Notes: generated from the sequence alone by a model not told the origin. DNA of 64,000 bases from an uncultured archaeon (GCA_964600735.1 CAZRLL010000003.1:20544-84543), one strand, 5' to 3'; counted from the stretch's first letter, positions 3,173-38,722 are shown. Numbers and translations: made by a program.

Positions 3173-3837
3173 CTAAGTACCTCTTGTAACGCAACTCTAA
3201 TTGAATCTTTTTCTCTTTCAAGTCGACTCTCAAAAGTATTGTCTACAAATAACCGATTGTCATGCCGGATCAATTTTATGCCACCCATAGTTATAAGGGC
3301 TTCAGATGAAATAGATATATTGGTTTCTTGGTTGGTTTCTTTATGTATATCTTTTGCAATTTGTGAAAGAGAATCCTTTGTAAAATGAGATTTGTCTTCG
3401 GCTCGTAAATGAAGTTTTAATTGACCACCACCGATGCTTATCCCGCTAGTTTTCACTAGCATTTGCATAAATTTTGAATAATCTTCTGTTTGCGTATATT
3501 TTTGCAATTTGGATTTGGTCTCAAGTTGAATCTCGTTAATTATTTGCTCACGAGTTTCTAAGTAATCCATTTTCAATGCAAGCTTCCTTCTTGAGATTTC
3601 TCTGATTTTTGCATTGATTGCTTGATTGCGAGCGGATCCAATTATGTCTGATTTTGCCATATTTGCTTTTTCTTCAGCAGTGGATAAAATTTCTTCAATT
3701 GAGAGTTTTGAGTTTTGAAGAATTTCATTTGCTTTGTCTTTTGCCGTATTTTCGATCTCAGTTTTGATTCTAGAAAAAGCCAATTGATCATCTGGTCGTT
3801 CATCCAATTTATCCTCAGGCGATGTATTTTCAGTCAA
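3169..3837 (-). CDS. A/V-type ATP synthase subunit E-like protein (orphan copy)
   Basis: 222 aa; long N-terminal charged helix, then ISIGGGQLKL and GGIKLIRHDNRLFVDNTFESRL, which match from memory the conserved C-terminal globular domain of archaeal AtpE. Confidence 0.6.
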   Translation of the reverse strand: MTENTSPEDKLDERPDDQLAFSRIKTEIENTAKDKANEILQNSKLSIEEILSTAEEKANMAKSDIIGSARNQAINAKIREISRRKLALKMDYLETREQIINEIQLETKSKLQKYTQTEDYSKFMQMLVKTSGISIGGGQLKLHLRAEDKSHFTKDSLSQIAKDIHKETNQETNISISSEALITMGGIKLIRHDNRLFVDNTFESRLEREKDSIRVALQEVLS

Positions 3838-36032: not shown

Positions 36033-36464
36033 GTGACGAGTAGAAGTATTAGACTACCATGGATTCCTGGCTTTCAAAGACCCAATTTTATATTCTATAG
36101 AATCCGAGTTAGTATACCAACTAAGATTCCTCCAGCATTGATTTATGGTTTAATTTATCTGAGTATTTTGTACGTATACGTTGGTGGGGTTTACGATTTA
36201 GTTGAGGAACCATACGCCCGAGGTTCTGACGCACAAGGTAATCCAGTATTAATATGGCCGGACCAAGACAGACAATTTATGATTGAGGGGATTGTTGCAG
36301 GATTAGTAATGTTTCTCGGCGCAGCTGGATTGTATATGTTAAGTCAAGCAACTACAGATCCACATAATCCCAATAGAGCAACAACATATCAAACAATTGG
36401 TGCAGTGATGATTGCTCTTGCTTTCATAATCTTACAAAGCATGTATAAGACCAAAACAGGTTAA
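36033..36464 (+). CDS. OSTC/DC2-like (OST3/OST6-family) oligosaccharyltransferase accessory membrane protein
   Basis: 143 aa, GTG start; three hydrophobic segments; GGVYDLVEEP...G.PV...RQFMIEG aligns from memory with human OSTC GGIIYDVIVEPP...RPV...GQYIMEG at the same spacing and protein size. Confidence 0.5.
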   Translation: MTSRSIRLPWIPGFQRPNFIFYRIRVSIPTKIPPALIYGLIYLSILYVYVGGVYDLVEEPYARGSDAQGNPVLIWPDQDRQFMIEGIVAGLVMFLGAAGLYMLSQATTDPHNPNRATTYQTIGAVMIALAFIILQSMYKTKTG

Positions 36465-36469
36465 AATCA

Positions 36470-37102
36470 TTATTCCAGAAAAATTACCTTCAATAAATCA
36501 TCCATAATAGAATTTAATTTTTGCTTTGCTTTAGATTTAGAGTAGTTTTCATCTATAATGAATTGAATTTCATTTAAAAATTTTAATGATAAGCTAAATA
36601 CAGTGCTATCAGCAGTCTTTCTTCCGTCATCTTCAAAATAAGCAATTTGAAATTCTTCGATTTCTGGACCCGTTAGATCAGTATCCCCCTTCAGAGTCGG
36701 TGTAACAATATTCGACGAAGAAATAATAGGAACAACCGGTATTTTATCTTTTGAAACGGGTTCACGTTTTTTAACTGATCTCTTCTTTTTTGCAATTTTT
36801 TCTTTTTTCTCTTTTTTTATCGGTGGCTTACTCAGGATGTCCTGAACAATTTTTTTGTTCTCTGAAGAGGCGGAAGATTTTATTAAATATTTAGAACCTA
36901 ATTTTGATTTTATTTTTTTTGCAATTTTTTCTGAGCTTTGTTTGGTTTTTGCTGATACCCCAGAACCATAAATAAGCCATATCGTTTTATTGGTTGAATC
37001 TTCGATTAATATGGATCTTCTGTGATGCAAACTTTTTGTGCTTGCTTCCATAGGATCAAGTTTACCTGAACTTGATACTTTGAAAAATTTTATATCATTC
37101 AT
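36470..37102 (-). CDS. Gelsolin-like domain protein with Lys-rich linker and unknown C-terminal domain
   Basis: 210 aa; N-terminal FFKVSSSGKLDPMEASTKSLHHRRSILIEDSTNKTIWLIYGSGVSAKTKQSSEKIAKKI fits the gelsolin-repeat pattern (strand, L...D.fIL, hhhW.G..s...e...A...A). Confidence 0.4.
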   Translation of the reverse strand: MNDIKFFKVSSSGKLDPMEASTKSLHHRRSILIEDSTNKTIWLIYGSGVSAKTKQSSEKIAKKIKSKLGSKYLIKSSASSENKKIVQDILSKPPIKKEKKEKIAKKKRSVKKREPVSKDKIPVVPIISSSNIVTPTLKGDTDLTGPEIEEFQIAYFEDDGRKTADSTVFSLSLKFLNEIQFIIDENYSKSKAKQKLNSIMDDLLKVIFLE

Positions 37103-38407: not shown

Positions 38408-38722
38408 GTGTCAATTTCCGATAAAGATGTGATTTTACAAAATTTAATGAATACAATTCTTTATGTTGCTATGGATGATGGGATTATTACTCCCGATGAG
38501 CTTGCGATATTAAAGCAAGTAAAATTGGATATTAACATGCTTCGTAAAACACTAAAGGATGCAGAAAAAGATGAAGAAACCACCTCAGAAGAACAAGAAC
38601 AGTTAGTTTGGTTTAGAAAAAACTTACTTCAAAATATTTATAATATTTCAAAAGCTGATCATGTAATTACTCAAGATGAAAGGAATCTAATTAACACATT
38701 AATCAAAGCTTTAATGAGCTAG
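38408..38722 (+). CDS. TerB-like small acidic protein (paralog of 10547-10867)
   Basis: 104 aa, GTG start; DDGIITPDELAILKQV and HVITQDERNLINTLIKAL repeats. Confidence 0.4.
   Translation: MSISDKDVILQNLMNTILYVAMDDGIITPDELAILKQVKLDINMLRKTLKDAEKDEETTSEEQEQLVWFRKNLLQNIYNISKADHVITQDERNLINTLIKALMS

What the first reader, a model, noticed from the sequence alone, without database searches (positions are those of the whole stretch)
36470..37102. Gelsolin-like domain protein with Lys-rich linker and an unknown C-terminal domain
Residues 5-75 (FFKVSSSGKLDPMEASTKSLHHRRSILIEDSTNKTIWLIYGSGVSAKTKQSSEKIAKKIKSKLG) follow the gelsolin-repeat pattern. That pattern is a leading strand, L....D.fIL, a hydrophobic strand ending in W/L-x-G, then a long helix with conserved Ala. 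After it come a KKEKKEKIAKKKR linker and a roughly 70-aa domain I cannot place. This resembles the single-gelsolin-domain-plus-X architecture described for Asgard actin regulators. The gene is convergent with, and only 5 bp from, the OSTC-like gene.
Basis: partly seen in the sequence, partly recalled or inferred. Interest (0 to 1): 0.6.

Follow-up and report, generated by a model that had tools for sequence, protein, structure and literature searches.

The report
Cryptic Asgard gelsolin protein with helical-hairpin tail
This gene from a Heimdall-group Asgard archaeon (among the closest archaeal relatives of eukaryotes) encodes a small protein whose front half is a genuine but database-invisible gelsolin-type (actin-regulator) domain and whose tail is a lineage-specific motif plus helical hairpin, so it adds a new variant to the known set of Asgard actin regulators without being a new kind of system.

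Summary
The ORF (36470-37102, minus strand, 210 aa) is real and conserved. Its N-terminal 91 residues are a gelsolin-homology domain. The AlphaFold2 model (pLDDT 94-98) superposes on Thorarchaeota ProGel (PDB 7C2F_B) with TM 0.87 and rmsd 1.8 A, and all other fold hits listed are gelsolin-type domains. The family profile finds ProGel by sequence (E = 3.9e-5) and matches the widespread Asgard ~300-aa gelsolin-plus-X proteins by hhalign (98.7 %, E = 2.6e-16). Pfam does not detect the domain. The signature Trp of "WxG" is replaced, and the type II Ca2+ ligands are absent (R29, T53).

Behind the domain come a Lys-rich disordered linker, a conserved strand-like motif (GDxxxxGPxIEEFQIAYY) and a confident 45-residue alpha-hairpin with no specific relative in the PDB. 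This C-terminal module occurs in 44 of 47 genomes of the organism's order and in 0 of 36 from the rest of its class, always behind this gelsolin domain. It is not homologous to domain X of the characterised Thor 1DGelX, whose likely ortholog is a separate gene in this genome (contig C123).

The most likely function is a calcium-independent actin-binding regulator, with the tail adding self-association or a second binding site. That function is inferred, not shown. This is a new variant of a known kind, of moderate interest.

The parts
36470..37102 (-). Whole CDS, 210 aa plus stop codon (36470-36472)
   Evidence: ORF; conserved family with aligned start and end
36830..37102 (-). Gelsolin-homology (GH) domain, residues 1-91. 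Strands 4-9, 15-18, 30-35 and 40-45; long helix 51-68; strand 73-76; short helix 79-91. Family hallmarks: SLHxRR (24-29), D35, W42, G46.
   Evidence: AF2 pLDDT 94-98; Foldseek 7c2f_B TM 0.87; profile against PDB E = 3.9e-5; hhalign 98.7 %; residue mapping
36689..36829 (-). Lys-rich, low-confidence linker, residues 92-138 (includes KKEKKEKIAKKKR at 96-108), ending in the near-invariant IPxVP (I121-P125)
   Evidence: pLDDT 55-78. Over residues 92-144 the net charge is +10 in the target and +2 to +19 across its taxonomic family, but about 0 in families f2 and f4. I121 and P122 are at least 90 % conserved.
36623..36688 (-). Conserved linear motif GDxxxxGPxIEEFQIAYF-EDD(G), residues 139-160. Alternating hydrophobic residues (I148, F151, I153, Y155, F156) are followed by an acidic run, which suggests a strand-forming interaction motif.
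   Evidence: G145, P146, I148, E150, F151, Q152, I153 and Y155 are invariant in the 12-sequence alignment. Column statistics. pLDDT about 50 in the full-length model and 74-80 in the C-terminal-only model.
36479..36613 (-). C-terminal antiparallel alpha-hairpin, residues 164-208 (helices 164-185 and 189-208). It ends in the order-wide signature LxxxxDxLLxxI[YF].
   Evidence: pLDDT about 96 in both models. No PDB relative by sequence or by fold, with all E >= 1. Conserved wide hydrophobic stripes. Present in 44 of 47 genomes of the order.
36033..36464 (+). Convergent neighbour: OST3/OST6 (OSTC-like) membrane protein. This is context only and not shown to be functionally linked.
   Evidence: Pfam PF04756 E = 3.5e-8. 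The same adjacency is seen in G002, G004 and G006 only.
38408..38722 (+). Small TerB-like gene. In five related genomes (two genera) its ortholog lies directly upstream of the family gene on the same strand. Here it is 1.3 kb away and divergent. It is a possible partner, unproven.
   Evidence: Pfam TerB E = 7.4e-5, just below the gathering cut-off; synteny

Best explanation
The gene encodes a member of a previously unannotated, order-restricted family of Asgard single-gelsolin-domain proteins. The organism belongs to the Heimdall group; named relatives are labelled Ca. Heimdallarchaeota and Ca. Kariarchaeota. Shown or strongly supported: residues 1-91 form a gelsolin-homology domain that is homologous to Asgard ProGel and GelX domains but belongs to a separate clade. 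The domain lacks the WxG tryptophan and the type II calcium ligands. It is followed by a disordered basic linker, a conserved strand-like motif and an alpha-hairpin that occur only in this order and only behind this domain. Inferred mechanism: the gelsolin domain binds actin through its long helix in the cleft between actin subdomains 1 and 3, as ProGel and gelsolin G1 do, without calcium control. The C-terminal module supplies a second function that a bare gelsolin domain lacks. The most likely second function is self-association, with the hairpin pairing into a four-helix bundle and the strand motif packing on it, which would make the protein bivalent. An alternative is a second contact with the filament or with a partner protein. 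Either would turn a weak monomer or filament binder into a bundling, severing or capping factor, by analogy with the way domain X gives Thor 1DGelX its activity. The basic linker of the target's own taxonomic family may add electrostatic affinity for acidic F-actin.
For: The gene is real and conserved. Fold: AF2 pLDDT 94-98; Foldseek top hit 7c2f_B with E = 8.9e-6, TM 0.87 and rmsd 1.8 A, and every other listed hit is a gelsolin-type domain. Sequence: profile against PDB finds ProGel at E = 9e-4 and then 3.9e-5, with Loki 2DGel at 0.022; hhalign against GelX-type proteins gives 98.7 %, E = 2.6e-16 over 88 columns. The genome encodes an actin (E = 5e-119), a canonical 2DGel-type protein and a GelX-type protein. 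Calcium ligands: both own-genome 2DGel domains have Asp and Glu where the target has R29 and T53, while ProGel and GelX have non-acidic residues at the Glu position. This fits the calcium independence reported for 1DGelX and the absence of calcium sites in ProGel (PMC7444086, bioRxiv 10.1101/768580). C-terminal module: the hairpin is confident in two independent models. Its conserved hydrophobic stripes are wider than a lone hairpin needs. The nearest shapes are oligomerisation or heteromerisation hairpins, though none is significant. The module is always fused to this domain and is restricted to the order, 44/47 against 0/36 genomes. Precedent: in Thor, adding domain X to a gelsolin domain changes actin affinity from a Kd of 337 uM to 7.7 uM and confers severing (PMC7444086).
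Against: There is no experimental or co-folding evidence that this protein binds actin. Pfam's Gelsolin model does not match the target (E > 1), and only 1 of 24 family members reaches E = 0.028. The signature Trp of WxG is replaced by Ile/Val/Leu. ProGel itself binds rabbit actin only very weakly, so the fold does not guarantee affinity. Some gelsolin-fold domains, such as that of Sec23/24, are not known to bind actin. No actin-related gene is a conserved neighbour. Dimerisation of the hairpin is inferred from sequence pattern only. The motif has low confidence in the full-length model. The basic linker is not conserved outside the target's taxonomic family. The alignments used for AF2 were shallow (24 and 31 sequences).
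Confidence: 0.62

Rival explanations
1. The gelsolin-fold domain has been recruited to a function unrelated to actin. The protein would be an adaptor that uses its strand motif and hairpin to bind a lineage-specific partner, for example the TerB-like protein encoded next to it in several genomes, or a membrane or glycosylation component.
For: The family forms its own clade, separated from ProGel, GelX, 2DGel and the Zn-ribbon type by a 100/99-supported branch. The WxG Trp is lost and a family-specific SLHxRR motif is gained. A TerB-like gene lies directly upstream on the same strand in five genomes. An OST3-like neighbour is present in four genera. [quoted passage not shown]
Against: All structural and sequence neighbours are actin-binding gelsolin domains. 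The neighbours are not conserved across the order; in family f2 the gene lies among QueC/QueD-type genes. Every Asgard gelsolin-domain protein tested so far acts on actin (PMC7444086, PMC9433394).
Confidence: 0.22
2. It is simply the local ortholog of the published Thor 1DGelX/GelX, with a shortened and diverged domain X, so nothing is new.
For: It has the same overall plan of GH domain, disordered linker and C-terminal module, and Akil et al. predicted domain X to be a coiled coil. The last helix of GelX-type proteins (MKERLxDLIxFF) resembles the target's last helix by eye, and hhalign picks that pair as its second alignment.
Against: That second alignment has probability 0.2 % and E = 0.28. 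The GelX-type C-terminus is a beta-rich domain that the target lacks. This genome has its own GelX-type gene on C123 (314 aa). The GH domains fall on opposite sides of a 100/99-supported split. The C-terminal profile finds nothing outside the order within the class.
Confidence: 0.08
3. The C-terminal half carries a formin-like (FH2-related) element that acts on actin.
For: A single-sequence phmmer search gave Bni1 FH2 chains at E = 0.18-0.28 over residues 95-187.
Against: The hit is not significant. It disappears in all three profile searches and in the fold search. Half of the aligned stretch is the disordered linker.
Confidence: 0.01

Closest known systems
Thorarchaeota ProGel (PDB 7C2F chain B; Akil et al. 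2020, PMC7444086)
   Same: It is the best structural and sequence match to the N-domain (TM 0.87, rmsd 1.8 A; profile E = 3.9e-5). Both are single gelsolin/cofilin-type domains without calcium sites.
   Different: ProGel is the domain alone (94 aa) and has the canonical Y-x-W-x-G. The target has W-x-I-x-G, a family-specific SLHxRR motif and a 120-residue C-terminal extension. The two fall in different GH clades.
Asgard 1DGelX / GelX (Thor 1DGelX, Akil et al. 2020; B35_GelX of L. ossiferum, bioRxiv 10.1101/2025.11.30.690169)
   Same: The architecture class is the same: one N-terminal gelsolin-homology domain, a long disordered linker and a non-gelsolin C-terminal module. The GH domains are homologous (hhalign 98.7 %, E = 2.6e-16). 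Neither has type II calcium ligands.
   Different: GelX-type proteins are about 290-345 aa, with a Pro/Thr/Ala-rich linker, a beta-rich domain (...GYxPRVxVxxGxVxAIEFLK), a helix and often a basic KKKLVAK tail. The target has a motif plus an alpha-hairpin that is not detectably homologous. The genome carries a separate GelX-type gene (C123). Equating the ~300-aa type with Thor 1DGelX is my inference: a 100 %-identical ProGel fragment occurs in G367, and same-genus proteins of 302-314 aa have GH domains 32-33 % identical to ProGel. No accession was available to confirm it.
Asgard 2DGel (Thor 7C2G/7C2H, Heimdall 7WHF, Loki 7WHG; PMC9433394)
   Same: The gelsolin fold is shared (Foldseek ranks 2, 3 and 13; weak profile hits).
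   Different: 2DGels have two GH domains, type I and II calcium sites and a WH2-like LKxV motif between the domains. The target has one domain, no calcium ligands and no conserved WH2-like motif.
Eukaryotic gelsolin, villin, severin and CapG domains (Pfam PF00626)
   Same: The fold is the same (28 fold hits at E <= 1e-3).
   Different: Sequence identity is 10-16 %, and Pfam's model does not reach significance. The eukaryotic proteins have 3-6 repeats and calcium regulation.

Membership tests
Gelsolin-homology (GH) domain superfamily | Fold: mixed beta-sheet packed between a long helix and a short helix, in the order b-b-b-b-H-b-h | tested here: met
   AF2 model with pLDDT 94-98 and exactly this order of elements. 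Foldseek 7c2f_B TM 0.87, rmsd 1.8 A, E = 8.9e-6, and all other listed hits are gelsolin-type. This rests on a predicted structure, not a solved one.
Gelsolin-homology (GH) domain superfamily | Statistically supported sequence relationship to established gelsolin domains | tested here: met
   Family profile against PDB: ProGel E = 3.9e-5. hhalign against GelX-type proteins: 98.7 %, E = 2.6e-16.
Gelsolin-homology (GH) domain superfamily | Match to Pfam PF00626 above the gathering threshold (21 bits) | tested here: not met
   No hit for the target at E <= 1. Only 1 of 24 members reaches E = 0.028.
Gelsolin-homology (GH) domain superfamily | Signature 'WxG' (DWG) motif at the end of the central strand, used by Akil et al. 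2022 to recognise gelsolin domains | tested here: not met
   The target reads I41-W42-L43-I44-Y45-G46. D35 and G46 are invariant in the 24-sequence alignment, but the Trp position (-2 from Gly) is Ile/Val/Leu. A Trp sits at -4, where ProGel has Tyr.
Calcium-regulated gelsolins (2DGel, eukaryotic gelsolin) | Type II Ca2+ ligands: Asp before the central strand and Glu at the start of the long helix (Gly+7) | tested here: not met
   R29 and T53 occupy these positions. Both domains of the same genome's 2DGel have Asp and Glu there.
Gelsolin-homology (GH) domain superfamily | Binds actin | not testable with these tools
   No complex prediction or assay is available. The genome has an actin gene.
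Asgard 1DGelX / GelX class (Akil et al. 2020) | A single N-terminal gelsolin domain followed by a linker and a non-gelsolin domain X | tested here: met
   The class definition is from PMC7444086.
Asgard 1DGelX / GelX class (Akil et al. 2020) | Domain X homologous to that of the characterised Thor 1DGelX (orthology) | tested here: not met
   hhalign on the C-terminal region gives probability 0.2 %, E = 0.28. The target has no beta-rich domain. A separate GelX-type gene is on C123. The GH domains are in different clades.
ProGel (single-domain Asgard gelsolin/cofilin) | Consists of the gelsolin/cofilin domain alone (about 90-100 aa) | tested here: not met
   The target is 210 aa with a conserved C-terminal module.
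Formin FH2 | Significant sequence or fold similarity to FH2 | tested here: not met
   Only E = 0.18 with the single sequence. Absent from the profile and fold searches.

The most novel reading that the evidence does not exclude
The order-specific C-terminal module (strand motif GPxIEEFQIAYY plus alpha-hairpin) may be a new actin-cytoskeleton element. In one version it is a dimerisation device that turns a calcium-independent gelsolin domain into a bivalent filament cross-linker or bundler. In another it is a docking site that tethers actin filaments to a specific partner, for example the TerB-like protein encoded beside it in several genomes. Either would give the Heimdall-group lineage an actin-organising protein type with no eukaryotic or other Asgard counterpart.
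Probability: 0.25. Interest if true: 0.6.

Novelty: new variant of a known kind. Interest (0 to 1): 0.4.

Why it matters
Asgard archaea are the only prokaryotes with a regulated, eukaryote-like actin cytoskeleton. Counts of their regulators, such as 'up to nine gelsolin homologues per genome' (PMC13716822), rest on InterPro/Pfam-type detection. This family is invisible to Pfam, so the gelsolin repertoire of the Heimdall group, the lineage most often placed nearest to eukaryotes, is under-counted. This one genome has at least four or five GH-domain genes of three or four architectures. The result also shows that 'GelX' is not one family. At least four non-homologous C-terminal modules sit behind single gelsolin domains in different Asgard lineages: a beta-rich domain, a zinc ribbon, helical repeats, and a motif plus hairpin. 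This suggests repeated modular elaboration of a primitive actin-binding domain. The protein is small and soluble-looking, so it is directly testable in standard actin assays.

Tried and rejected
(1) Pfam scan of the target and of all 24 family members found no usable hit. (2) Single-sequence search of the PDB gave only Bni1 FH2 at E about 0.2. I rejected this as chance because the profile and fold searches do not recover it. (3) The profile hit of the motif to picornavirus VP4 N-termini (GxxIxxFNINYY, E = 0.09-1) is a short compositional resemblance and was rejected. (4) Word-indexed protein searches returned only the query or 7 proteins, none named. The third, using the motif, gave three named MAGs. 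(6) Direct BLASTP against the genome's own 2DGel was not significant (E = 6.5), so profiles were needed. (7) I tested whether the target's last helix is homologous to the last helix of GelX-type proteins, and it is not supported. (8) A search for a conserved WH2-like L[KR][KRD][VTI] motif found none conserved. (9) An order-wide search for conserved neighbours found none. (10) RNA evidence: only DNA metagenome runs hold the locus. (11) Pfam Profilin found nothing in the genome at E <= 1, which I did not follow up. (12) The paper's supplements, which would give the 1DGelX accession, are not held, so the identity of Thor 1DGelX with the ~300-aa type rests on inference.

Full report
**1. Observation.** The ORF at 36470-37102 (minus strand) exists and encodes 210 aa. 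The gelsolin-like stretch is residues 6-70, and KKEKKEKIAKKKR is residues 96-108. The convergent OST3/OSTC-like gene (36033-36464; Pfam OST3_OST6 E = 3.5e-8) ends 5 bp away. The window is AT-rich (about 33 % GC) and carries an archaeal 23S rRNA gene. The whole genome is 4.08 Mb in 354 contigs and 86 % complete. It encodes a eukaryote-like actin (Pfam Actin E = 5e-119) and a canonical protein with two gelsolin domains, so it is an Asgard archaeon. Named relatives that carry the same gene family are labelled Ca. Heimdallarchaeota and Ca. Kariarchaeota. The sequence comes from marine sediment metagenomes.

**2. The gene is real and belongs to a conserved family.** The word-indexed search found only the query. 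Exhaustive HMMER against 1.84 billion representatives found 28 proteins at E <= 1e-3, the query included, mostly 180-235 aa. None is named beyond 'hypothetical protein', and none has a precomputed Pfam domain. The alignments show four parts:
- an N-terminal domain of about 95 aa, with SLHxRR, an invariant D35, W42 and G46;
- a linker of variable length ending in a near-invariant IPxVP;
- a strongly conserved GDxxxxGPxIEEFQIAYY-acidic motif;
- a C-terminal helical region ending in LxxxxDxLLxxI[YF].

**3. The N-domain is a gelsolin-homology domain.** Pfam does not see it, and the genome-wide six-frame scan with PF00626 does not register this locus even at E <= 1. Three other lines of evidence agree that it is one.
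- The family profile hits PDB 7c2f_B, the Thorarchaeota ProGel of Akil et al. 2020 (PMC7444086), end to end. E = 9e-4 with 24 sequences and 3.9e-5 with 39 sequences. Loki and Heimdall 2DGel are the next hits.
- AlphaFold2 on the family alignment gives pLDDT 94-98 for residues 1-91, with the gelsolin order of elements.
- Foldseek against the PDB puts ProGel first (E = 8.9e-6, TM 0.87, rmsd 1.8 A). Below it come only gelsolin, villin, severin, adseverin, fragmin, CapG and Asgard 2DGel domains, with 28 hits at E <= 1e-3.

The profile also finds a gelsolin-type N-domain in 325 of 400 Asgard genomes. hhalign against an alignment of those proteins gives 98.7 % probability and E = 2.6e-16 over 88 columns.

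**4. Residue-level differences.** ProGel, the ~300-aa proteins and both domains of this genome's own 2DGel read Y-x-W-x-G at the end of the central strand. The target family reads W-x-[I/V/L]-x-G. The signature Trp is lost, and a Trp sits two residues earlier on the same face of the strand. The two type II Ca2+ ligands are Asp and Glu in both own-genome 2DGel domains. They are R29 and T53 in the target. ProGel and GelX also lack the acidic pair. The domain is therefore expected to lack this calcium site, as reported for ProGel, and 1DGelX was found to be calcium-independent.

**5. The C-terminal half.** In the full-length model, residues 92-163 have low confidence and residues 164-208 form a confident antiparallel alpha-hairpin (pLDDT about 96). 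A separate model of residues 118-210 reproduces the hairpin and raises the motif segment to pLDDT 74-80 as an extended chain. The module has no relative in the PDB by sequence; only designed helical proteins appear, at noise level. It has none by fold either, with all E >= 1. The nearest shapes are generic oligomerisation or heteromerisation hairpins such as the ESCRT-I core, an integrase coiled coil and the CheA dimerisation domain. Column statistics show an i, i+2, i+4 hydrophobic pattern in the motif (F151, I153, Y155) followed by an acidic run, which is typical of a strand-forming linear motif. Both hairpin helices carry broad conserved hydrophobic stripes, more than a lone two-helix hairpin needs, which suggests a third packing element or self-association. 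The linker region (residues 92-144) is strongly basic only in the target's own taxonomic family (net +2 to +19). It is roughly neutral in the sister families. No WH2-like motif is conserved.

**6. Distribution.** The C-terminal profile alone finds the module in 44 of 47 genomes of the organism's order and in 0 of 36 genomes of the other orders of its class. Every hit lies in the same 184-305-aa open frames, or in contig-truncated copies, and none is a separate gene. Full-length matches of the whole-protein profile are likewise confined to that order. Within the target's taxonomic family there are two paralog types. This genome's second copy is on contig C260.

**7. [quoted passage not shown] They showed that Thor 1DGelX nucleates, severs and sequesters in a calcium-independent way, with a Kd of 7.7 uM against 337 uM for ProGel. 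Later work calls the class GelX: a GH domain, an extensive linker and X. Outside the target's order, the proteins hit by the N-domain profile are mostly 290-345 aa. They have a Pro/Thr/Ala-rich linker, a beta-rich C-terminal domain, a helix and often a KKKLVAK tail. Family f31, which carries them, is Thorarchaeia. One genome there holds a 100 %-identical copy of the crystallised ProGel fragment, and in that genus the 302-314-aa proteins have a GH domain 32-33 % identical to ProGel. The paper reports 35 % for 1DGelX. I therefore infer that the ~300-aa type is the published 1DGelX. This genome has its own copy of that type (C123, 314 aa). The target's tail is not detectably homologous to the tail of that type; hhalign's second alignment has probability 0.2 %. 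In a maximum-likelihood tree of 68 GH domains, the hairpin family, together with one other helical-tail type from another Asgard lineage, is separated from ProGel, GelX, the Zn-ribbon type and 2DGel by a branch with 100/99 support. Caveats: the tree uses only 96 columns, has a midpoint root and includes a single ProGel row.

**8. Genomic context.** The OST3-like gene is the convergent neighbour in four genera of the taxonomic family. In two other genera a small TerB-like gene sits immediately upstream on the same strand; here it is 1.3 kb away. In family f2 the neighbours are QueC/QueD-type housekeeping genes. No neighbour is conserved order-wide, so context adds no functional evidence.

**9. 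Interpretation.** The structural identity is well supported: a GH domain with an order-specific motif and hairpin. The function is inferred. The protein is most likely a calcium-independent actin-binding protein whose tail adds self-association or a second binding site, which would turn a weak binder into a bundling, severing or capping factor by analogy with 1DGelX. The main rival, which I put at about 0.2, is that this divergent clade has left actin biology and acts as an adaptor for another partner. The finding is a new variant of a known kind, and it is not categorically new.

Noticed in passing
G000 contig C155, about 3190-3225 (L003:2469-2510), outside the window: The genome's only actin gene is split into two reading frames. 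Compared with the intact same-genus gene (G001:C65, 391-aa open frame), it carries a 32-nt insertion (AAATTAGCTCGCTGCGGCGATTAATTGCATAA) in the D-loop coding region (…SIMTDV|DHYVREYYIGDEAL…). The insertion is identical in a Logan contig of the likely source run, and a contig from a second sample covers it from L003 position 2478 onward with no differences. The flanks and insert fold stably (z = -3.0), with both inferred junctions in unpaired segments either side of a 4-bp helix. It could be a bulge-helix-bulge-like mini-intron in an mRNA, a real disruption or a shared assembly artefact. This is unresolved.
   Followed up: partly
G000 contig C260:500-1202, minus strand (L082): A second, long-linker paralog of the same family is split into two frames in an A-rich tract of its Lys-rich linker (…GAAAGAAAGAAAAAAAAAAAAGAAA…). 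One metagenome contig (X1) has 4 nt fewer at L082:547, in or beside that tract, which by frame arithmetic would restore a single frame. Another contig (X4) agrees with the MAG. This looks like tract-length heterogeneity or an assembly error rather than a dead gene.
   Followed up: partly
window 38408-38722 (+): A 104-aa TerB-like protein with two D-x-x-IT-x-DE repeats (Pfam TerB E = 7.4e-5). Its orthologs lie directly upstream of the gelsolin-hairpin gene on the same strand in five related genomes, sometimes with a second copy downstream. It may be a functional partner.
   Followed up: partly
L017, L020 and L021 (genomes G051, G055 and G053; another order of the same class): These carry a different single-gelsolin-domain architecture: a GH domain with canonical WxG, a Lys/Thr-rich linker and a C-terminal CPxC…CxxC zinc ribbon (206-246 aa). 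It recalls the Zn region reported at the end of Loki 2DGel.
   Followed up: no
L051 and L054 (genomes G399 and G398; another Asgard lineage, f33): These are GH-domain proteins (227 aa) whose tail is two tandem helical repeats (ELxVEAFxKxIxExPEIRKR…). Their GH domain groups with the hairpin family in the tree, so a helical-tail gelsolin type may be older than the order.
   Followed up: no
G000 contig C166:115-1716, minus strand (L001): The genome's canonical two-gelsolin-domain protein is 533 aa. After the two domains it has about nine tandem copies of an EEAKRKAEEEARLAAE-like unit, which may form an ER/K-type single alpha-helix, and then a further C-terminal domain.
   Followed up: no
G000 contig C123:8766-9707, plus strand: A 314-aa protein of the widespread ~300-aa GelX type: a GH domain with VFLWKG, a long linker, a beta-rich domain and an acidic helical tail. 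It is the likely ortholog of the characterised Thor 1DGelX in this genome.
   Followed up: partly
window 36623-36688 (motif residues 139-160): The motif GPxIEEFQIAYY-acidic weakly resembles the conserved N-terminal segment of picornavirus VP4 (G-x-x-I-x-x-F/T-N-I-N-Y-Y-K-D; E = 0.09-1). I judge this to be chance.
   Followed up: partly
whole genome G000: Pfam's Profilin model finds nothing in the genome at E <= 1. I did not check whether this reflects divergence of the profilin, the 86 % completeness of the MAG, or real absence.
   Followed up: no
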